A stretch of DNA of 64,000 nucleotides from a virus, in the IMG/VR virus record IMGVR_UViG_3300009506_003033, positions 1-64,000 of that record; one strand, written 5' to 3'. Made by a program: the position numbers and the translations under genes. Every line of letters begins with the position of its first letter. Position 1 is the first letter of the stretch. The notes beneath the pieces are model-generated. The model was not told where the DNA came from, ran no database searches, and was given only the letters and a program-made list of their open reading frames with translations. Below, one piece after another: positions 23,060 to 51,939 of this stretch.

Positions 23060-23416
23060 CTAGTCGCGACGGGCCACCGAGGCACGTTCGCGTTCCAAAA
23101 TCCGGTAAGCCTCTTCGATCATACCGTCGACGGCTTCTTTTGAAATGTCGACGTTATGTTTCCGAGCCAATGCGGGCCATTCTGTTTTCCAGACATCCAA
23201 GGCATGACATTCGCAACCGATCGCTACGTAGCGCCACGGAATCAGCAAAAAAGCATCTTCGCCATCTATCGTTCCTATGTTAGTATTGTAGCCGTAGCCG
23301 GAGCCGTAGCCGGAGCCGTAGCCGGAGCCGTCGCCGTCGCCGTAGCCGTAGCCGGAGCCGGAGCCGGAGCCGTAGCCGTAGCCGGAGCCGGAGCCGAGAT
23401 GAATATCTATGGCCAT
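23060..23416 (-). CDS. Gly/Ser/Tyr-repeat phage protein
   Basis: GSGSGYGYG repeats (hexamer DNA repeat about 23290-23398) followed by VAIGCECH domain. Confidence 0.6.
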   Translation of the reverse strand: MAIDIHLGSGSGYGYGSGSGSGYGYGDGDGSGYGSGYGSGYGYNTNIGTIDGEDAFLLIPWRYVAIGCECHALDVWKTEWPALARKHNVDISKEAVDGMIEEAYRILERERASVARRD

Positions 23417-39464: not shown

Positions 39465-39680
39465 ATGAGGTATACGATGTTGTGGCAGCTGCACTGGCAA
39501 GACGTCGATACTGGAAAGCTAGAATTTCGAGAACAGCGAGATTTTCCAGACGGCGAGACGCATTTTGATTTTGCCTTATGGTGGAAAGGAGTGAACGAAC
39601 GTCATCCATTGCCAGCAAACAAGAGGTGGTTTGTTTGTAACGAATTAGCTCCAGAATTTATAAAGGAGTGTGAAAGATGA
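39465..39680 (+). CDS. hypothetical protein
   Basis: coupled to the downstream gene by ATGA overlap. Confidence 0.45.
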   Translation: MRYTMLWQLHWQDVDTGKLEFREQRDFPDGETHFDFALWWKGVNERHPLPANKRWFVCNELAPEFIKECER

Positions 39681-40666
39681 GCGATGATTTACCAAAAGCA
39701 CACGCACGGTTCAGGGCATTTCACGAGAGGTTCCCGCTGCCGGAGGATAAATTCACGGCACTCAAGGAAGACATCGTGCGAACGAAACAGGTGCGCGATC
39801 CGTTGGTGACGTGGAAAGGCTGTCTCGTCGACGGGTACACCAGGGCCGAGATCATCGAGTCGGAGGGCATCAATATCTGGTCGAGCGAAGCGTTGGATCC
39901 GGACTGGTCGGAGGATCGGGTCTACGAATGGGTGATCGTGAATCAGTGTGCTCGACGGAACCTCACGGAGCAGCAGATGGAGCTGGTTTGGGGGGAGCGA
40001 TACAACCTCGAGAAGGCGAAAGATCACACCGAAAACTTGCCAGTCACTACGGGGGATGTCGAACCAAGCGGTAAAAATTACCGCTTGGGAGAAACTCCGG
40101 GGAAAACGCAAAAAACGACAAACGGAACCGGAAAGAAGAGGGGGAGACCGAAAACGTCGGAACGGATCGCGAAAGAGGCAGGCAAATCCGAAAAAACGGT
40201 GCGGACATGGGGGAAGCATCAGCAGATATTCGAGAGTCTCCCATCGCTCGTTCAGCGGGCGGTCACGAAGAGTCCGAAAAAACTCACCGATAGCCAGTGG
40301 AAGGCCCTGGATAGATGCGAGGGCATCGAAGGTGTGGAGCGGGCATTGCGGGTAGGCCAAGCGGACAATTTGGCGACTGCATACAAGGTTGCCACGGGAA
40401 AAGAATTTGCGGGCATGAAATCGAAACCGAAACAGAAAGGGGAATCGGAACAAACGCAGGATGATGGGCCCCTCACGGAGATTCAGATTGTCAAGCAGAT
40501 CGACGGGATCCGCAAATCTATCGTAAAGCATCGAGCAGCCATGGGATTGTGGACGGAGGCCGGATTGAAGCTGCCAGAAGTCAAACAAATCAGGCTAATC
40601 ATGGCGGCCCTGGATATCCACGTGTATCAACCATTAGGACAACTGGAAGAGGCATTGAAGAAATGA
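39677..40666 (+). CDS. ParB-like N-terminal domain DNA-binding protein
   Basis: DPLVTW..CLVDGYTRAEI, NQCARRNLT, HTH TSERIAKEAGKSEKTVR. Confidence 0.7.
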   Translation: MSDDLPKAHARFRAFHERFPLPEDKFTALKEDIVRTKQVRDPLVTWKGCLVDGYTRAEIIESEGINIWSSEALDPDWSEDRVYEWVIVNQCARRNLTEQQMELVWGERYNLEKAKDHTENLPVTTGDVEPSGKNYRLGETPGKTQKTTNGTGKKRGRPKTSERIAKEAGKSEKTVRTWGKHQQIFESLPSLVQRAVTKSPKKLTDSQWKALDRCEGIEGVERALRVGQADNLATAYKVATGKEFAGMKSKPKQKGESEQTQDDGPLTEIQIVKQIDGIRKSIVKHRAAMGLWTEAGLKLPEVKQIRLIMAALDIHVYQPLGQLEEALKK

Positions 40667-46586: not shown

Positions 46587-47261
46587 ATGCCTGTTTTCTG
46601 TCTTTGCACCGGCCGCTGCGGATCGCAATCTATAGTTGATCTGCTGAAGCGAAACGGCGTCGAAGGCTGTCATCACGAGAAATATCCGGCACTCTTTCGT
46701 GAAGCAATCGGTTATTATTACGGGCTCTACAGTCGGGATCGAATCGTAGCGAAGTTGCGAGAGACGCGGCAGGGCGTGTTCTTCGAGGCCAACAACAAAC
46801 TCTTTCCGTTGGCCAAGCCTCTTTTTCAGGCGTTTCCCGACGCCAAGTTCATGGTTCTGCATCGCGACGGCAGAGAAGTAGTGCGGTCGGCTCTTCAGAG
46901 CAATTGGTATCATCCCAAAGATCCCTATGGCATGTTGAGGCTCGGTGCGAGGATGAGAATCTCGCAGTTCAAGAAGGTGTGTCGATATTGGTCTGAAGTT
47001 TACCGGCGCATCTACGATGATCTGGCATCGCTGGATTGTGAATTCATTGAAGTACGATTCGATGAATTGATCAAAGGCAAATTGGCGGATCAGCTCGGCA
47101 AGTTCATCGGCAGGAGGCTAAGACTTCGCGTGCCGCGGAGACTGCACCGCACGAAGCGATGGACGGTGAAACCATACGCGCAGTGGAAGCCCGAGCGGCA
47201 GCGAGAATTTCGGAGCATCTGCGGCCCGATGATGGAACGGCTGGGATATTCTTTCGATTGA
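46587..47261 (+). CDS. sulfotransferase family protein
   Basis: LCTGRCGSQS, HHE, FPDAKFMVLHRDGREVVRS, VRFDEL, MMERLGY. Confidence 0.8.
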   Translation: MPVFCLCTGRCGSQSIVDLLKRNGVEGCHHEKYPALFREAIGYYYGLYSRDRIVAKLRETRQGVFFEANNKLFPLAKPLFQAFPDAKFMVLHRDGREVVRSALQSNWYHPKDPYGMLRLGARMRISQFKKVCRYWSEVYRRIYDDLASLDCEFIEVRFDELIKGKLADQLGKFIGRRLRLRVPRRLHRTKRWTVKPYAQWKPERQREFRSICGPMMERLGYSFD

Positions 47262-47266
47262 CGGTA

Positions 47267-47294
47267 TTGACAGAATATCGCAGTCGTTTATAAT
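47267..47294 (+). promoter_or_regulatory. consensus sigma70-type promoter for the repeat/Cas7-like locus
   Basis: TTGACA-16-TATAAT. Confidence 0.85.
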
Positions 47295-47419: not shown

Positions 47420-47603
47420 GGCGCGGCGTGGCGCGGCGAGGCATGGCAGGGCGGGGCGGGGCCAGGCAAGGCGAGGCAGGCGTGGCATGGCAGGCGAGGC
47501 AGGCAGGGCTTGGCATGGCAGGCGAGGCGAGGCGCGGCGAGGCGAGGCAGGCAGGGCACGGCAGGGCATGGCAGGGCCAGGCAGGGCGAGGCAGGCATGG
47601 TTT
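47420..47603 (+). repeat. GGY-NN pentamer array 1 (candidate guide-RNA array)
   Basis: GGCGC GGCGT GGCGC GGCGA GGCAT GGCAG ... punctuated by GGCA. Confidence 0.9.
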
Positions 47604-47605
47604 TC

Positions 47606-47635
47606 GTCCGATGTGAGTGCATCGGACACTTTTTT
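47606..47635 (+). terminator. intrinsic terminator after array 1
   Basis: GTCCGATG-TGAGTG-CATCGGAC plus ACTTTTTT. Confidence 0.8.
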
Positions 47636-47673
47636 CCTTTACTGCTGGCACAGGCCAGCAAGGAGTTATTGTC

Positions 47674-48363
47674 ATGGCAAAGGCCAAGAAACCAGAAGGT
47701 ACGATCGAACTTCAGCGGCTCGAAGAGGCCATTCTTGAGGTGCCCATCATCGGCAAGACACCGTTGATCCCGCACAAATGGTCGGAGAAGGCCAAAGGCA
47801 TGATGCCAGGGCATCCTGATCGAGACAAAGTGAAAGCCGATAAGGGTACTCGCGATCCAGCAAAGGAAGCCGAGTCCTGCCAGTACAAACTCGGCGAACA
47901 GTACGCAGTTCCCGCTACTGCGTTCAAAGCGGCTATGATTGGTGCTTGTCGATTCTTCGAGAAGCCTACGATGGTCGAAGCCAAATCGCTGGTGTACGTC
48001 GAAGGTTCTGGCGCTGATCAGCTTGTCGAATTCGACTACAAGGACAAAGAGTTGCACGAGGATACTCCTCGCAACTCAAATGGCAGCGCCGATCTGCGGT
48101 ATCGATACTATTTCACGAACTGGTCAGCTGTTCTGCGAATCTTGTACGTGCCGAAGATCATCTCCCGAGAGTCCATCATTGCTCTTGTTGATGCTGCGGG
48201 CCGCGGAGGCATCGGCGATTGGCGGCCGAGTGCCCCAAAGTCGATGACGGGAACGTACGGCACGTGGCGAGTCGATGATCGCGGCACGATCAGAGACATC
48301 GATCCGAAAGATGTTGACAAGACATCGCCTAAACCAAAGCGGAAAGCATCAAAAGCAATCTGA
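47674..48363 (+). CDS. solo Cas7/RAMP-like RNA-binding protein
   Basis: beta1 LEVPIIGKTPLIPH, YAVPATAFKAAM helix, LRYRYYFTNWSAVLRI, C-terminal Gly-rich loop AAGRGGIGDWRP...GTYGTWRV; AAGGAG RBS. Confidence 0.75.
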   Translation: MAKAKKPEGTIELQRLEEAILEVPIIGKTPLIPHKWSEKAKGMMPGHPDRDKVKADKGTRDPAKEAESCQYKLGEQYAVPATAFKAAMIGACRFFEKPTMVEAKSLVYVEGSGADQLVEFDYKDKELHEDTPRNSNGSADLRYRYYFTNWSAVLRILYVPKIISRESIIALVDAAGRGGIGDWRPSAPKSMTGTYGTWRVDDRGTIRDIDPKDVDKTSPKPKRKASKAI

Positions 48364-48383
48364 TGTTTTGCGGTTGAAGACAT

Positions 48384-49253
48384 GGCAAGGTAAGGCTAGG
48401 CCGGGCATGGCGCGGCAAGGCAAGGCCAGGCGTGGCAGGTTGGGTTCGGCTTGGCAAGGCTGGGCAGGCCAGGCTTGGCATGGCATGACTGGGTCTGGCA
48501 GGGCTCGGCGGGGCTTGGCGAGGCAGGCGAGGCGCGGCCAGGCTTGGCACGGCTTGGCTGGGCCAGGTGAGGCAAGGCAAGGCGTGGCAGGCTAGTCGCG
48601 GCCAGGCATGGCTGGATTAGGTAGGGCTTAGCGAGGCGAGGCACGGCAGGCGTGGCGTGGCGTGGCTAGGCAAGGCATGGCGTGGCAGGCGAGCCAAGGC
48701 TAGGCAAGGCGGGGCAAGGCTGGGCGCGGCAGGGCGAGGCTTGGCTTGGCTCGGCAAGGCGCGGCAGGCGCGGCAGGGCTCGGCGCGGCAAGGCAGGCAA
48801 GGTGTGGCGCGGCATGCGCGGCAAGGCAGGCGAGGCGTGACGAGGCGAGGCCAGGCCCGGCGAGGCGAGGCCAGGCCCGGCGAGGCGAGGCGAGGCGCGG
48901 CGAGGCGAGGCAGGCAGGGCACGGCAGGGCATGGCAGGGCGGGGCAAGGCCGGGCTTGGTTTGGCATGGCAAGGCTGGCGAGGCAGGCAAGGCGAGGCAG
49001 TCGTGGCTTGGCGGGGCATGGCATGGCCTGGCAGGGCAAGGCGCGGTGGGGCTGGGCAAGGCGTGGCAGGCATGGCCCGGCATGGCGCGGCGAGGCGGGA
49101 CAGGGCGGGGCACGGCTGGGCATGGCAAGGCTGGCGAGGCAGGCAAGGCGAGGCAGTCGGGGCTCGGCATGGCGGGGCTGGGCTAGGCCAGGCGTGGCAG
49201 GTTGGGTTCGGCTTGGCAAGGCTGGGCTTGGCCCGGTAAGGCAAGGCGCGGCA
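48384..49253 (+). repeat. GGY-NN pentamer array 2 (about 870 bp)
   Basis: strict 5-nt register of GGC/GGT plus variable dinucleotide, reset roughly 17 times by GGCA tetramers. Confidence 0.95.
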
Positions 49254-49260
49254 GACATGA

Positions 49261-49298
49261 TGCTGGCGGTAAGTGCCGCCAGCAATATTTTCTTTCTC
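49261..49298 (+). terminator. intrinsic terminator after array 2
   Basis: TGCTGGCGG-TAAGTG-CCGCCAGCA plus ATATTTTCTTTCTC. Confidence 0.75.
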
Positions 49299-49331
49299 TA
49301 ACGTTCGCATAGGCGGACAAGGAGTTGTGTT

Positions 49332-50045
49332 ATGGCTAAGGCCAAATCTAGTGTAATCACGATGTCACTGTCTGAACTTGTGGAGGACATGGAATTGTAC
49401 CCGCGGCATGCTGTTGACAATGCACATGTCGCTTCTCTCGTGTTGGCGATGGAATCCGGCAGTCAATTGCCGCCGATCGTCGCTGACAAGAAATCCAAAC
49501 GGATCACTGATGGATGGCATCGGGCCAGGGCCTATGCGCGAATACATGGCCCAACGGCGACTGTAGAGGTCGAACTAATCGACTATGCATCAGAAGCAGA
49601 TATGATTTTTGATGCAGTGCGACGTAATTCTGCTCACGGTCGCAAGCTCGATTCAATGGATCAAACGCGGTCCATCCACATGATGGAAAAACGAGGCTTG
49701 CAATCGATTCAAATCGCGGCTGCCTTGAATGTGCCAGAGAAACGGATCGAGAAGCTGCGGATCAAAGTCGCGAGCAGCCGATCATCCGGGATTGCTACGG
49801 TTCCAGGCACGAAGTCGATCACGTTGAAGCGATCGTGTTCTCACATGGCCGGCAAATCATTGACAGCCGATCAAGTAAAAGTGCACGATTCGGCGCCTGG
49901 AACCAGCTATCTATTGGTTTCACGACAATTGCGAGAGGCACTGCGAGTTGAACTAGTGAATCTCGACGATGAGCGACTGGTGGAAGAACTTTGTGCTCTG
50001 CGTGACGCACTGAATGAGTACTTGGAGCAGCTTTGTGCTGCTTGA
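49332..50045 (+). CDS. ParB/Srx-like N-terminal domain protein
   Basis: LYPR, LPPIVAD..RITDGWHRARAY, RRNSAHGRKL, HTH IQIAAALNVP. Confidence 0.75.
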   Translation: MAKAKSSVITMSLSELVEDMELYPRHAVDNAHVASLVLAMESGSQLPPIVADKKSKRITDGWHRARAYARIHGPTATVEVELIDYASEADMIFDAVRRNSAHGRKLDSMDQTRSIHMMEKRGLQSIQIAAALNVPEKRIEKLRIKVASSRSSGIATVPGTKSITLKRSCSHMAGKSLTADQVKVHDSAPGTSYLLVSRQLREALRVELVNLDDERLVEELCALRDALNEYLEQLCAA

Positions 50046-50051
50046 GGTTTA

Positions 50052-50214
50052 GGTCTGGGCAAGGCGTGGCAAGGCCAGGATGGGCTCGGCGGGGCGTGGC
50101 AGGCAGGGCACGGCAAGGCAGGGCGAGGCCGGGCCAGGCGCGGCATGGCCTGGCATGGCGCGGCGCGGCGAGGCAGGCGAGGCAAGGCGCGGCTTGGTGT
50201 GGCAGGCGAGGCAA
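50052..50214 (+). repeat. GGY-NN pentamer array 3
   Basis: GGCAA GGCGT GGCAA GGCCA ... GGCA punctuation. Confidence 0.9.
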
Positions 50215-50233
50215 GACATCGCGGATATGAAAC

Positions 50234-50458
50234 ATGAAAGGTGTGGCGAATGAAATGAAAACCTACACGAAAACAAAGCTACTGGCATATTACAAAGAGC
50301 TCGGAAAAACGCCGCCTAAGTGGGTGTTGGAGGCGCCGGAGAATGCGTTATTCAATCAAGGCTTGACACCATACGGTCACGTTCCGCTGTATATCAAGGG
50401 GATGCCTGCACCGAAAGCACAACCTGATGTTGTATCAATCGACTTTCCGGACGCTTAG
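50234..50458 (+). CDS. small hypothetical protein between arrays 3 and 4
   Basis: AT-richer ORF MKTYTKTKLLAYYKELGKTPPKW. Confidence 0.5.
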   Translation: MKGVANEMKTYTKTKLLAYYKELGKTPPKWVLEAPENALFNQGLTPYGHVPLYIKGMPAPKAQPDVVSIDFPDA

Positions 50459-50475
50459 AGAAGGCTGGCATTGTA

Positions 50476-50708
50476 GGCGTGGCACGGCCGGGCATGGCTC
50501 GGCAGGGCGCGGCCAGGCGCGGCCAGGCGTGGCAGGCGTGGCAGGCGTGGCTTGGCGCGGCAAGGATAGGCAAGGCAAGGCTAGGTTTGGCGAGGCGCGG
50601 CGAGGCCGAGCTCGGCGCGGCTGGCTTGGCATGGCTTGGCGAGGGCCGGTTTGGCCAGGCGCGGCATGGCTTGGCATGGCGCGGCGCGGCGAGGCAGGCG
50701 AGGTGCGG
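50476..50708 (+). repeat. GGY-NN pentamer array 4
   Basis: GGCGT GGCAC GGCCG GGCAT GGCTC ...; shares 50/51 nt with array 3. Confidence 0.9.
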
Positions 50709-50769
50709 ACAAACAACTCTCCCAAAACCCAACCCACTTGTTACACTATGGATAGCAAAGGAGGTGCCA

Positions 50770-51939
50770 GTGACATTGCAGGTAGAGACAGTGCCGATTG
50801 ACAGCGTGAGTCCTGATCCGGCGAACACGATGAACCATCCACCGCGGAACATCTCTGCCATTGAGGGATCGCTGAAGCGGTTCGGACTTCGTAAGCCGAT
50901 CGTCGTCGATAGCAACGGGGTCATCAGGGCCGGCAATGGGACATGGCAGGCAGCCAAGAATCTCGGCTGGCAAACAATTGATGTTGCACGGACTAATCTC
51001 GCTGGTTCCGAGGCAACGGCCTATTCCATCGCTGACAATCGCACGGCTGAACTGGCGGAATGGAACGAGGAGTTACTGGCTAGACTCTTGCCGGAGATGG
51101 ATTACGAGTTGCAACTCGCTACCGGATTTGATGAGGACGATCTGAAAGAGTTGTTCGCTGAACAATTGAACAACACGGACAGCGAGATAGATCGTGAACC
51201 ACTTATCGATAAGGCCGGAGAACTTCAGAGGAAATGGAAGGTTGAGTTGGGCCAATTCTGGCAAATTGATCGGCACCTTGTATATTGCGGGGATGCTCTT
51301 GACTGGTCTTACGAAGCAGATGGAGTTTGCACCGATCCACCGTATGACATGAGTTGCGAAACGATTCGAACGGTCGTCCGTCAATATGCAAAAGTAGCAG
51401 CTGTTATCTGTACGGGACGCCAGGCATTCAATTTAGCGAGGGATGGATGGGAATATGCAATGGACTTATGTTGGAGTCATAAATCTCCACGATCAATCAA
51501 CACGAAGCGTACGCCATTGTTCTACCACGCGAATGTTGTCGTGATGAATCTGGGCGGAAACAAGACCGACTGGACGCGACCGAGGCCAAATTACGGCAGT
51601 CTATTACATCACGAATACGAGGACTGGGGAGGCCACGGCCAAGGCAAGTCGCCGAACTTATTCGCAGAAATTATGGAAGGATTTCCCTGGGAAACGATGG
51701 CTGATCCTTTCGCCGGAACGCTTGCGACACTTATTGCGGCTCACAAACAAGGCAGAACATTCATTGGATGCGAAAAAGAGCCAAAAATGCTGGCGGTAGG
51801 GCTTGAACGTTGCAGCCTATTGTGTCCTAAGGTGTTGACAGACAAGCAGTTGAGTCGGTATAATGCGGGAAAGCTTGCTGGTGGTCAGCAAGCGATCCCG
51901 AAACATGCTCGAACTGTGAAGGAGTCCGAGAATGTCTGA
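50770..51939 (+). CDS. ParB-like domain fused to a DNA methylase
   Basis: AAGGAGG RBS plus GTG; SLKRFGLRKPIVVD..IRAGNGT, IADNRTAELAEW, TDPPY, ADPFAGT. Confidence 0.8.
   Translation: MTLQVETVPIDSVSPDPANTMNHPPRNISAIEGSLKRFGLRKPIVVDSNGVIRAGNGTWQAAKNLGWQTIDVARTNLAGSEATAYSIADNRTAELAEWNEELLARLLPEMDYELQLATGFDEDDLKELFAEQLNNTDSEIDREPLIDKAGELQRKWKVELGQFWQIDRHLVYCGDALDWSYEADGVCTDPPYDMSCETIRTVVRQYAKVAAVICTGRQAFNLARDGWEYAMDLCWSHKSPRSINTKRTPLFYHANVVVMNLGGNKTDWTRPRPNYGSLLHHEYEDWGGHGQGKSPNLFAEIMEGFPWETMADPFAGTLATLIAAHKQGRTFIGCEKEPKMLAVGLERCSLLCPKVLTDKQLSRYNAGKLAGGQQAIPKHARTVKESENV
51835..51864 (+). promoter_or_regulatory. internal sigma70-type promoter
   Basis: TTGACA-18-TATAAT; spacer contains AGCAGTTGAG, also in the 26612 promoter. 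Confidence 0.6.

What the first reader, a model, noticed from the sequence alone, without database searches (positions are those of the whole stretch)
49319..50458. ParB-like and small genes interleaved with the arrays as candidate accessory or effector proteins
Seen: the ParB/Srx-domain gene (DGWHR, NSAHG) has a translation start almost identical to the Cas7-like gene (AAGGAGTTGTGTTATGGCTAAGGCCAAA vs AAGGAGTTATTGTCATGGCAAAGGCCAAG, both MAKAK). Both starts are preceded by a TGCTGGC...GCCAGCA hairpin. A 74-aa gene sits between arrays 3 and 4. Established: ParB/Srx domains bind nucleotides and can act as clamps or nucleases. Inference: co-regulated partners that could silence, spread on or cut guide-selected DNA.
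Basis: partly seen in the sequence, partly recalled or inferred. Interest (0 to 1): 0.7.

Follow-up and report, generated by a model that had tools for sequence, protein, structure and literature searches.

The report
ParB-like accessory gene of phage VIPR
The ParB-like gene is the regular partner of a Vipr guide-RNA protein in a phage VIPR system, a recently described RNA-guided gene silencer, whereas the 74-residue gene is a rare passenger found at no related locus.

Summary
The "arrays" are GGC-NN pentamer tracts and the "Cas7-like" gene is a Vipr RAMP. Its family profile has one PDB match, "SUSP1 Vipr protein" (E 1e-5). So this is a VIPR locus, a kind described in 2026 preprints, in a marine-sediment provirus.

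The 237-aa ParB/Srx-like protein is a conserved partner of vipr. Of 42 full-length relatives on metagenome contigs, 34 have vipr beside them. Seven of the other eight have under 300 bp of upstream sequence. On viral contigs the count is 26 of 40, or 32 of 38 assessable with a looser test. In 61 non-redundant loci the order is vipr then parB in 58, with a median gap of 27 nt. Vipr and ParB distances correlate (Mantel r 0.63). In sister Vipr lineages an unrelated protein, phrog_15946, holds the same slot.

The shared "MAKAK" start is part of a duplicated module of about 100 nt. The 74-aa ORF has two small homologues in 1.84 billion representatives and none in about 140 related loci.

"ParB" occurs in the main text of none of four VIPR papers.

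The parts
47267..47294 (+). Consensus sigma-70-type promoter (TTGACA-16-TATAAT, 12 of 12) upstream of array 1. It is the likely start of the VIPR transcript.
47420..47600 (+). Array 1: GGC-NN pentamer tract of 37 GGC units (vrRNA-type repeats).
47606..47627 (+). Module 1, hairpin 1 (loop TGAGTG) followed by a T tract. It is terminator-like and is the candidate vrRNA tail.
47643..47660 (+). Module 1, hairpin 2 (TGCTGGC-ACAG-GCCAGCA). It abuts the AAGGAG ribosome-binding site of vipr.
47674..48363 (+). vipr: 229-aa RAMP-type guide-RNA protein (phrog_4652).
48380..49255 (+). Array 2: about 875 bp of GGC-NN pentamers, lying between vipr and the ParB-like gene.
49261..49284 (+). Module 2, hairpin 1 (TGCTGGCGG-TAAGTG-CCGCCAGCA) followed by a T tract. 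Terminator-like.
49303..49318 (+). Module 2, hairpin 2 (GTTCGC-ATAG-GCGGAC, with one G-U pair). It abuts AAGGAG at 49319.
49332..50045 (+). ParB/Srx-like accessory gene, 237 aa: ParB N-terminal-type domain, probable helix-turn-helix, conserved C-terminal part. It is the Vipr partner (vap-type gene).
50055..50215 (+). Array 3: GGC-NN pentamer tract with no stable tail hairpin after it.
50234..50458 (+). 74-aa ORF of a very rare small-protein family. It is not conserved at related VIPR loci.
50470..50710 (+). Array 4: GGC-NN pentamer tract with no stable tail hairpin after it.

Best explanation
The region 47.27-50.71 kb is one VIPR (Viral Interference Programmable Repeat) locus of a provirus. 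It comprises a promoter, GGC-NN guide-RNA arrays, the Vipr RAMP protein and an accessory gene.

Shown: the 237-aa ParB/Srx-like protein fills the accessory ('vap') slot. It is encoded directly after vipr, or after an intervening array, on the same strand in nearly every place where its family occurs, and it has co-diverged with Vipr.

Inferred: it acts on the DNA that the Vipr-vrRNA filament has selected. It would bind DNA through its helix-turn-helix region and use its ParB-type N domain to self-associate or hold a nucleotide. This would stabilise or widen the transcriptional silencing of a competing mobile element. The analogy is Vap1 of phage SUSP1, which is required together with Vipr.

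In this phage an 875-bp array separates vipr from parB. The parB gene has acquired a copy of the vipr leader: terminator-like hairpin, second hairpin next to the ribosome-binding site, and the first five codons. The two proteins are therefore probably made under the same control.

The 74-aa ORF is a real but rare small gene lodged between two array pieces. It is not a regular component of the system.
For: Identity of the system:
- A profile of 24 relatives of the 229-aa protein (24 of the 120 listed, 788 found) has one PDB match at E<=10. That match is 36pp 'SUSP1 Vipr protein', E 1e-5, over the GVGDWRP block.
- GGY-NN tracts on the vipr strand flank vipr in nearly all 48 Vipr-anchored loci.
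- The preprint's Results describe a Vipr RAMP, GGY/NN vrRNAs and vap1-6 genes.

Linkage, starting from ParB:
- Of 50 metagenome loci, 42 hold a full-length family member. Of these, 34 have Vipr by HMM at E<1e-3. Seven of the other eight have under 300 bp upstream, and one (L119) is a true negative.
- Of 40 viral loci, 26 have Vipr. Six more have an upstream ORF of about 200 aa that weakly matches the Vipr HMM. Two lie at a contig edge and six have none.

Arrangement: in 61 non-redundant loci the order is vipr then parB in 58. The median gap is 27 nt. An array lies between the genes in 19. An array starts within 200 bp after parB in 32 of 43 assessable loci.

Co-divergence: Mantel r 0.63 over 44 loci, with 0 of 2000 permutations as high.

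Phylogeny: the window's Vipr lies in a well-supported clade of 22 rows, of which 18 have ParB, 2 none, 1 both and 1 is at a contig edge.

Specificity: the family HMM hits only 49332-50036 in the window. It does not hit the two other ParB-like genes.

Fold class:
- phrog_1033, E 2e-13.
- A profile of 8 members matches ParB 7o0n/7bnk/7bnr at E 0.02-0.03. YPR aligns with QPR, LPPIV with LQPIL, and DGWHRaRA with AGERRWRA.
- Pfam ParB_N in 7 of 24 members and HTH_23 in 4 of 24.
- The nearest Atlas clusters carry ParB_N (feature score 0.98, TM 0.65).

No partition system: no ParA-type ATPase (PF13614) in the 84.5-kb provirus, while the control search rings in 14 of 14 genomes.

Leader duplication.

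Published role of Vap1: SUSP1 lacking vap1 loses about 10^4 in plaquing on satellite lysogens, as does SUSP1 lacking vipr (passages seen). vap1 co-expression enhances protection.
Against: - No structure, complex or biochemical result was obtained, so DNA binding, nucleotide binding and contact with Vipr are inferred only.
- The window protein itself has no Pfam ParB_N hit. Relatives score below the curated cut-off, with a best E of 7e-4. The PDB profile matches are marginal (E 0.02-0.2) and cover only the first 70 or so residues.
- The motif is DGWHR rather than GERR, so canonical CTP chemistry cannot be assumed.
- Most ParB-labelled loci were fetched through ParB, so the counts measure how specific ParB is for vipr. 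They do not measure how often vipr has ParB. Among 48 Vipr-anchored loci only 4 carry ParB, against 24 with phrog_15946.
- Six viral loci and L119 carry a family member with no Vipr nearby.
- Some loci are redundant because the same contig sits in two collections.
- Vap1 of SUSP1 is not shown to be related to this protein.
Confidence: 0.6

Rival explanations
1. The ParB/Srx-like protein is an enzyme, either a nuclease or a nucleotide-dependent DNA-modifying enzyme. It destroys or marks the DNA that Vipr-vrRNA has bound, so this VIPR cuts rather than only silences.
For: - Polar residues are invariant across 24 diverse members, which looks like an active site: D19, R25, D60, H63, R64, N99, H102, D110.
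- The motif is DGxHR-like rather than GERR.
- The preprint states that some VIPR types carry predicted nuclease or helicase vap genes.
- From my own recall, not from any call: ParB/Srx-fold proteins include nucleases and kinases.
Against: - According to the preprint, nuclease-type vaps belong to types enriched in host defence islands. Phage-borne types carry DNA-binding vaps. This locus is in a provirus.
- No nuclease family was matched in Pfam, PHROGs or NCBIfam.
- A helix-turn-helix and a ParB-like architecture fit a DNA-binding adaptor equally well.
Confidence: 0.15
2. The protein serves the locus itself. It would be an autoregulator that binds the two TGCTGGC...GCCAGCA palindromes as DNA operators, or a factor for vrRNA maturation or loading. 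It would not act at the target.
For: - The palindrome occurs only twice in 84.5 kb, both times just upstream of vipr and parB.
- The protein has a probable helix-turn-helix.
- The long staggered arrays need processing by something.
Against: - Related loci keep the hairpins through compensatory changes, with different stem sequences. They include G-U pairs, which fits RNA structure rather than a DNA palindrome. Five of 6 pairs show double changes in 9 hand-picked leaders.
- Most loci have parB directly after vipr with no such palindrome between them.
- In sister Vipr lineages the same slot is filled by an unrelated protein.
Confidence: 0.12
3. The adjacency is incidental. The gene would be an ordinary phage ParB-like protein, for partition, packaging or host takeover, that happens to lie among repeats.
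For: - Phage genomes often carry several ParB-like genes. This window has two others, at 39677-40666 and at 50770-51939, the latter fused to a methylase.
- Seven loci hold a family member without Vipr.
Against: - 34 of 35 assessable metagenome loci and 26-32 of 38 assessable viral loci pair it with vipr, in a fixed order and on the same strand.
- The two proteins co-diverge.
- There is no ParA in the provirus.
- The element is an integrated provirus.
Confidence: 0.03
4. The 74-aa ORF is a second accessory or an anti-VIPR factor tied to arrays.
For: - It sits between two array pieces.
- It has two small homologues at 42-49% identity, so it is probably a real gene.
- One homologue, P0215, has an N-terminal extension (MWHGRQGE) that reads like a translated GGY-NN tract. 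This hints that it also follows an array (inference only).
Against: - There is no tblastn hit in any of the loci fetched through Vipr or ParB and none on viral contigs.
- Only 3 family members exist among 5.8 billion clustered proteins.
- It matches no family in Pfam, PHROGs or NCBIfam.
- It has no clear ribosome-binding site.
Confidence: 0.1

Closest known systems
VIPR systems with vap accessory genes (bioRxiv 10.64898/2026.04.26.720920, with 10.64898/2026.04.26.720927 and 10.64898/2026.10.15.759431)
   Same: - Phage- or provirus-borne.
- A small RAMP protein of about 200 aa, with a sequence-profile link to SUSP1 Vipr.
- GGY-NN pentamer arrays on the same strand.
- One accessory gene directly after vipr.
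- Accessory genes predicted to interact with DNA.
   Different: - The accessory gene here has a ParB/Srx-type N domain. The word 'ParB' occurs 0 times in the main texts of the three VIPR preprints and of a fourth paper that recovers VIPR arrays, and no paper in the library holds both 'ParB' and 'vrRNA'.
- Whether it equals one of vap1-6 cannot be told. Figures and supplements were not visible.
- The arrays are long (up to 875 bp) and split into four tracts interleaved with genes.
- The vipr leader is duplicated in front of the accessory gene.
Chromosomal and plasmid ParB of ParABS partition systems (Pfam ParB_N, PF02195; solved examples 7bnk/7bnr/7o0n)
   Same: - The N-terminal blocks align: xPR, (L/Q)PI(V/L), and G-x-(R/H)-R-x-R-A.
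- A probable helix-turn-helix follows.
- The overall length and order of domains are similar.
   Different: - No ParA partner in the provirus.
- No parS identified.
- The motif is DGWHR instead of GERR.
- Scores lie below Pfam's cut-off.
- The constant neighbour is an RNA-guided RAMP, not an ATPase.
phrog_15946 proteins (for example gp49 of Mycobacterium phage Pippy), the alternative gene in the same slot
   Same: It lies directly after vipr, on the same strand, in sister Vipr lineages: 24 of 48 Vipr-anchored loci.
   Different: - Not detectably homologous to the ParB-like protein (hhalign probability 0.14%).
- About 150 aa.
- No Pfam family and no significant PDB relative (best E 0.38).
- Absent from the window.
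CRISPR class 1 Cas7 backbone with accessory effectors
   Same: A RAMP-fold protein that polymerises on a guide RNA, with separate effector or accessory proteins encoded beside it (preprint Results).
   Different: - No CRISPR repeats or spacers, and no cas1/cas2.
- Guide information lies in the NN of 5-nt repeats.
- The only PDB match of the RAMP family profile is Vipr, not Cas7.

Membership tests
VIPR system (Vipr + vrRNA array + vap) | A Vipr-family RAMP protein is present. | tested here: met
   The family profile has one PDB match at E<=10: 36pp 'SUSP1 Vipr protein', E 1e-5. phrog_4652, E 4e-29.
VIPR system (Vipr + vrRNA array + vap) | Tandem GGY-NN pentamer repeats flank vipr on the same strand. 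| tested here: met
   Four tracts show GGC spacing of 5 nt, with some of 4 nt. The same holds in related loci.
VIPR system (Vipr + vrRNA array + vap) | The arrays are transcribed into vrRNAs that Vipr binds. | not testable with these tools
   No RNA run is listed for this sequence. A consensus promoter and terminator-like tails are present.
vap (Vipr accessory protein) as a class | The gene is conserved next to vipr across independent loci. | tested here: met
   34 of 42 metagenome loci (34 of 35 assessable), 26 of 40 viral loci, fixed order in 58 of 61 loci, Mantel r 0.63.
vap (Vipr accessory protein) as a class | Identity with one of the published vap1-6 families. | not testable with these tools
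   The main texts give no sequences or domain names beyond WH-like, HTH-like, HNH and helicase. Supplements are closed.
vap (Vipr accessory protein) as a class | The gene is required for, or enhances, VIPR function. | not testable with these tools
   Shown only for SUSP1 vap1 in the preprints.
ParB/Srx superfamily (Pfam ParB_N, PF02195) | Profile match to ParB_N above the curated cut-off. | tested here: not met
   The window protein has no hit at E<=0.01. Seven of 24 relatives hit at E<=1, the best at 7e-4, below the 26.3-bit cut-off. The genome scan with PF02195 finds only the methylase fusion.
ParB/Srx superfamily (Pfam ParB_N, PF02195) | Remote homology to ParB N domains by other profiles. 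| tested here: met
   phrog_1033, E 2e-13. PDB ParB, E 0.02, with the motif blocks aligned. Atlas ParB_N clusters, feature score 0.98 and TM 0.65.
ParB/Srx superfamily (Pfam ParB_N, PF02195) | Arginine-rich GERR box and CTP binding or hydrolysis. | tested here: inconclusive
   DGWHR aligns with GERR, and only the last Arg is kept. The alignments stop before the next box. No structure or assay was available.
ParABS partition system | A ParA ATPase partner and a parS centromere. | tested here: not met
   PF13614 is absent from the provirus, while the control rings in 14 of 14 genomes. No parS was identified.
   The repeats have 5-nt period. No Rfam family matches in 46.5-52 kb. The neighbours are phage genes.

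The most novel reading that the evidence does not exclude
The Vipr-vrRNA filament acts as a programmable, RNA-defined loading site, a movable 'parS', for a ParB-type nucleotide-gated clamp. Once loaded at the guide-selected site, the ParB-like protein would slide or spread along the rival element's DNA. A short sequence-specific footprint would become long-range silencing. ParB-like proteins and phrog_15946 proteins would be interchangeable downstream modules of the same RNA-guided targeting core.
Probability: 0.2. Interest if true: 0.85.

Novelty: new member of a known kind. Interest (0 to 1): 0.55.

Why it matters
VIPR is a newly described RNA-guided DNA-silencing system. Its accessory genes are needed in vivo, but how they work is not known.

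This report identifies one accessory family as ParB/Srx-like. It also shows that the family is tightly and anciently tied to Vipr, and that an unrelated protein replaces it in sister lineages. That gives a concrete hypothesis to test, namely guide-directed loading of a ParB-type DNA clamp or enzyme. It also supplies a set of natural loci to test it in.

If the hypothesis holds, it would join two well-studied mechanisms, RNA-guided targeting and ParB spreading. It would also suggest a compact programmable silencer with adjustable reach. If it fails, the result still assigns a clear role to a phage 'ParB-like partition protein' annotation that is misleading here.

Tried and rejected
Rejected readings:
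- CRISPR array. The repeats have a 5-nt period.
- Partition ParB. There is no ParA.
- Homology between the ParB-like protein and phrog_15946. hhalign probability is 0.14%.
- The ParB_N-methylase fusion (50770-51939) and the 329-aa ParB-like ORF (39677-40666) as VIPR parts. The family HMM does not hit them, and tblastn found no relative of either in the Vipr- or ParB-anchored loci.

Searches that gave nothing:
- Single-protein scans of viral contigs gave 1 locus for Vipr and 0 for ParB.
- An alignment-based scan for the 74-aa ORF on viral contigs gave 0 loci.
- Rfam on 46.5-52 kb gave 0 matches at E<=1.
- The PDB profile search for phrog_15946 gave no significant match (best E 0.38).
- The Atlas search with the C-terminal part (residues 148-237) gave only scores of 0.82 or less. 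HTH_ParB, RepB and KorB labels appeared on 11-21% of cluster members. This is chance level, a lead only.
- Sequencing runs: two DNA holders from one marine-sediment study, and no RNA holder listed.

Large repetitive proteins hit by the 74-aa ORF (P0210, P0211, P0213, P0214, P0216) match only a short stretch and carry unrelated repeat families. I treated them as spurious.

Choices that affect the counts:
- A1 used 24 of the 120 listed Vipr homologues (788 found).
- A2 used the window protein plus 23 of 88 ParB homologues.
- A3 used the window protein plus 12 close homologues.
- A5 used the 8 members that carried a precomputed PF02195 mark.
- A8 used 10 phrog_15946-type proteins.
- The leader alignment A6 used 9 leaders picked by eye from those printed: Vipr relatives at 59% identity or more, plus the two parB leaders that follow arrays. 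L098 was dropped because coding sequence, not an array, precedes its vipr. This set leans towards the hairpin.
- The tree used 70 unique full-length Vipr rows. Partial matches and exact duplicates were left out.
- Loci L052-L140 were fetched through ParB, so they cannot show how often vipr has ParB.
Full report
WHAT IS THERE

The window is part of an 84,498-bp IMG/VR provirus record, estimated 96% complete. The sequence is held by two DNA runs of one marine-sediment metagenome study.

Between 47.4 and 50.7 kb lie four tracts on the + strand in which GGC recurs every 5 nt, now and then every 4 nt. They are at 47420-47600, about 48380-49255, 50055-50215 and 50470-50710.

The genes interleaved with the tracts, all on the + strand, are:
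- 47674-48363: 229 aa, phrog_4652, no Pfam family.
- 49332-50045: 237 aa, phrog_1033 'ParB-like partition protein' at E 2e-13, no Pfam family.
- 50234-50458: 74 aa, no family.
- 50770-51939, after the last tract: a ParB_N-DNA methylase fusion.

DUF5131, terminase and portal genes follow.

THE OBSERVATION

- DGWHR is at residues 60-64 and NSAHG at residues 99-103.
- The start region AAGGAGTT-N4-6-ATGGCNAAGGCCAA occurs exactly twice in 64 kb, in front of the 229-aa and 237-aa genes. No match occurred in 100 shuffles.
- TGCTGGC...GCCAGCA occurs exactly twice in the window and in the whole provirus.
- The 74-aa ORF lies between tracts 3 and 4.

WHAT KIND OF SYSTEM

I read the Results, the Discussion and the type-classification method of bioRxiv 10.64898/2026.04.26.720920. 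They describe:
- phage-borne loci with a small RAMP protein (Vipr);
- guide RNAs made of alternating GGY/NN pentamers;
- recognition of double-stranded DNA through the NN positions;
- transcriptional silencing of rival mobile elements;
- usually one accessory gene (vap), with six vap families spread over seven types.

The link to this window rests on my own calls. A profile of 24 relatives of the 229-aa protein has a single PDB match at E<=10, namely 36pp 'SUSP1 Vipr protein' at E 1e-5, over the conserved GVGDWRP block. In loci fetched through this protein, GGY-NN tracts lie beside the gene on its strand almost everywhere.

So 'Cas7-like' was a reasonable reading of a RAMP, and the 'arrays' are vrRNA arrays, not CRISPR arrays.

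IS THE ParB-LIKE GENE A REAL PARTNER?

Starting from the ParB-like protein, there are 88 homologues at E<=1e-5 in the 5.8-billion-protein collection. I fetched 40 viral loci and 50 metagenome loci.

Metagenome set:
- 42 loci hold a full-length family member.
- 34 of them have Vipr by HMM at E<1e-3.
- 7 of the other 8 have less than 300 bp of upstream sequence, and 6 of those 7 still show an adjacent array.
- One locus, L119, is a true negative.
- Of the 8 remaining loci, which hold only partial or distant ParB matches, one has Vipr.

Viral set:
- 26 of 40 loci have Vipr.
- 6 more have an ORF of about 200 aa directly upstream that weakly matches the Vipr HMM (E 3e-7 to 2e-3 on a small ORF set).
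- 2 loci are cut at the contig edge.
- 6 have no Vipr.

Arrangement over 61 non-redundant loci, the window included:
- The order is vipr then parB in 58 and the reverse in 3.
- The median gap is 27 nt.
- An array of at least 9 units lies between the two genes in 19 loci.
- An array starts within 200 bp after parB in 32 of 43 loci with enough downstream sequence.

Pairwise distances of Vipr and of ParB across 44 loci correlate, with Mantel r 0.63 and 0 of 2000 permutations as high. The two genes have travelled together. This shows co-inheritance, not contact.

In the two homologue lists many Vipr and ParB hits also share the same longest-contig length.

HOW OFTEN DOES vipr HAVE THIS PARTNER?

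Less often than the reverse. The 48 Vipr-anchored loci (L004-L051) split as follows:
- 24 carry a phrog_15946 protein in the slot after vipr.
- 4 carry the ParB-like protein.
- 17 carry neither. These are mostly a distant Vipr clade with a third kind of neighbour.
- 3 are cut at the contig edge.

phrog_15946 includes gp49 of Mycobacterium phage Pippy (E 3.5e-88). Vipr homologues at about 50% identity occur in 27 Mycobacterium phage records, 5 Gordonia phage records and 1 cyanophage record.

The two accessory proteins are not detectably related (hhalign probability 0.14%). One locus of those examined has both. The window has no phrog_15946 homologue.

On a Vipr tree of 70 unique rows:
- The window sits in a well-supported clade of 22 rows: ParB 18, none 2, both 1, contig edge 1.
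- Its sister is a clade of 10 rows (phrog_15946 9, ParB 1) that holds the mycobacteriophages.
- ParB-linked Viprs also form several deep, long-branched clades.
- The ParB label needs 11 changes on the tree. Starred branches force at least 7. The shuffled mean is 21.3.

Most ParB rows were fetched through ParB, so these figures show that the association is old and recurrent, not how frequent it is.

WHAT IS THE PROTEIN?

Evidence for a ParB/Srx-type N domain:
- phrog_1033 at E 2e-13.
- A profile of the 8 members that carry a precomputed PF02195 mark hits ParB structures 7o0n/7bnk/7bnr at E 0.02-0.03. YPR aligns with QPR, LPPIV with LQPIL, and RIVDGWHRaRA with RIIAGERRWRA. The 24-member profile gives E 0.2-0.4.
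- Pfam ParB_N is matched by 7 of 24 members, always below the curated cut-off.
- The nearest ESM Atlas clusters by features (0.98) and by structure (TM 0.65) carry ParB_N on 12-38% of their members. So do the N-terminal parts of phage ParB-methylase fusions.

A helix-turn-helix after the N domain is suggested by HTH_23 in 4 of 24 members and by a weak match to a viral HTH protein, 2x48, at E 0.31.

Invariant residues across 24 diverse members include D19, Y23-P24-R25, P47-P48, D60-G61, H63-R64, N99, H102-G103, D110 and K166. So many fixed polar residues point to a ligand or catalytic site.

It is my recollection, not a tool result, that canonical ParB uses GERR and a following E-N box to bind and hydrolyse CTP, and that GxHR-type motifs occur in sulfiredoxin and other ParB-fold enzymes. 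The alignments obtained here stop before the second box. Whether this protein binds CTP is therefore open.

A partition role is unlikely. No ParA-type ATPase (PF13614) is present in the provirus, while the control search finds it in 14 of 14 genomes. The element is also integrated.

THE START

Gene callers and the Atlas start the protein at M11. The MAKAK start is better supported, for two reasons. It has AAGGAG 7 nt upstream. Homologues also have about ten residues aligned N-terminal to the LVEDM block.

THE SHARED START AND THE HAIRPINS

Aligning the end of array 1 through the vipr start with the end of array 2 through the parB start shows one homologous module of about 100 nt. In order it contains:
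- the array end, GGCAG(G/A)CATG;
- hairpin 1, with different stems and loops TGAGTG / TAAGTG;
- a T-rich tract;
- hairpin 2, with loops ACAG / ATAG;
- AAGGAGTT;
- ATG GCN AAG GCC AAR.

Both stretches fold far better than shuffles, with z -4.3 and -3.6. The stretches after arrays 3 and 4 do not, with z -0.2 and +1.5.

Hairpin 1 plus its T tract gives the two best terminator-like sites of the region. A 12-of-12 consensus promoter lies at 47267-47294, upstream of array 1. In the predicted folds the pyrimidine tract also pairs with the AAGGAG, so the ribosome-binding site may be masked.

The TGCTGGC stem is hairpin 2 in the first module and hairpin 1 in the second. I have no explanation for the reuse of the same stem.

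In close relatives the vipr leader has the same second hairpin next to the ribosome-binding site, with other stem sequences (TCTCGC/GCGAGA, TGCTGC/GCGGCA, GGCCC/GGGCC). In L096 the parB gene, which also follows a short array, has it too. In 9 hand-picked leaders, 5 of 6 predicted pairs show changes on both sides. The set is small and selected.

Vipr relatives begin MAKK. ParB relatives begin variously (MSTVK, MSAKA, MSNKI and others). The MAKAK start of parB in this phage was therefore most likely copied from vipr, together with the leader, when an array came to lie between the two genes. Equal translation signals and a shared position behind a terminator-like tail make coordinated expression plausible. 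That is inference.

THE 74-aa ORF

- It matches no family in Pfam, PHROGs or NCBIfam.
- An exhaustive search of 1.84 billion representatives finds itself, two small proteins (P0212, 65 aa, 49% identity; P0215, 88 aa, 42% identity) and five large repeat proteins. The repeat proteins match only a short stretch, and I regard them as spurious.
- A profile search of the 5.8-billion collection finds the same three small proteins and no more.
- tblastn finds no relative in any locus fetched through Vipr or ParB or on viral contigs.

It is probably a real gene, given conservation at 42-49% identity. It is not a regular part of VIPR loci.

One hint remains. P0215 begins MWHGRQGE, which reads like a translated GGY-NN tract, as if that gene also followed an array. 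I could not fetch its contig.

MECHANISM

Shown:
- This is a VIPR locus.
- The ParB-like protein fills the conserved accessory slot and co-diverges with Vipr.

From the preprints:
- SUSP1 lacking vap1 loses about 10^4 in plaquing on satellite lysogens, as does SUSP1 lacking vipr (passages).
- vap1 co-expression enhances protection.
- Phage-borne types carry DNA-binding vaps, while defence-island types carry nucleases or helicases.

Inferred: the ParB-like protein works at the guide-selected DNA as a DNA-binding co-factor that strengthens or widens silencing, possibly gated by a nucleotide. I put this at about 0.6 overall. The accessory role is near certain. The mode of action is about even odds.

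Rivals are an enzyme that cuts or marks the target (0.15), a factor that serves the locus itself (0.12), an incidental neighbour (0.03), and, separately, the 74-aa ORF as a further accessory (0.1).

NOVELTY

The system and the existence of accessory genes are already described. 'ParB' has 0 occurrences in the main text of the three VIPR preprints and of a fourth paper that recovers VIPR arrays. No paper in the searched library holds both 'ParB' and 'vrRNA'.

Figures and supplementary data, which list the vap families, were not visible to me. This family may be one of vap1-6 under another name. I therefore file the locus as a new member of a known kind.

The boldest reading that the evidence allows is that Vipr filaments load a ParB-type clamp at an RNA-chosen site.

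Noticed in passing
L001:4617-6319 (Mycobacterium phage Pippy, KY965064.1) and 26 other Mycobacterium phage records: Cheoctovirus mycobacteriophages carry a VIPR locus between the antirepressor and WhiB genes. In the six records examined in detail (Pippy and relatives, L001, L007, L008, L010-L012) it comprises a GGY-NN array of 45-68 units, a Vipr homologue (gp48, 50% identity) and a phrog_15946 gene (gp49). All are annotated 'hypothetical protein'. The array overlaps the annotated small CDS gp47 and the start of gp48, so these calls are probably wrong.
   Followed up: partly
L006, L018, L025, L027, L045, L046 and others (24 of 48 Vipr-anchored loci): phrog_15946, about 150 aa with a conserved H-x4-W block ('HPLH..FEWDD'), is the commonest gene directly after vipr in this Vipr clade. 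It has no Pfam family and no significant PDB relative (best E 0.38). It is unrelated to the ParB-like protein.
   Followed up: partly
window 47643-47660 and 49261-49284: The same 7-nt stem (TGCTGGC/GCCAGCA) is used by two hairpins that occupy different positions in the duplicated leader module. These are the only two copies in the 84.5-kb provirus. The reuse is unexplained.
   Followed up: partly
window 51835-51864: A second perfect consensus promoter (TTGACA-18-TATAAT) lies inside the 3' end of the ParB_N-methylase gene, just upstream of the DUF5131 gene.
   Followed up: no
window 46587-47261: A sulfotransferase-family gene (Sulfotransfer_3, E 2e-10) lies directly upstream of the VIPR promoter. 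This is unusual cargo for a phage.
   Followed up: no
window 23288-23396: A hexamer tandem repeat (GTAGCC, 18 copies, 89% matches) of unknown meaning.
   Followed up: no
L119 (SDBV01004417.1), L065, L075, L080, L086, L089/L090: Members of the ParB-like family occur here with no Vipr or array within 5 kb. L065 and L086 have a zinc-finger protein of about 400 aa upstream instead. These may be a free-standing or differently partnered branch of the family.
   Followed up: no
L057, L062, L066, L072, L087/L088: The ParB-like gene is preceded by an ORF of about 200 aa that only weakly matches the Vipr HMM, and no GGY-NN tract was detected. These may be divergent VIPR loci with a non-canonical repeat.
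   Followed up: partly
P0215 (88 aa, homologue of the 74-aa ORF): Its called N-terminus, MWHGRQGE, reads like a translated GGY-NN tract. The gene may therefore also lie just after an array.
   Followed up: no
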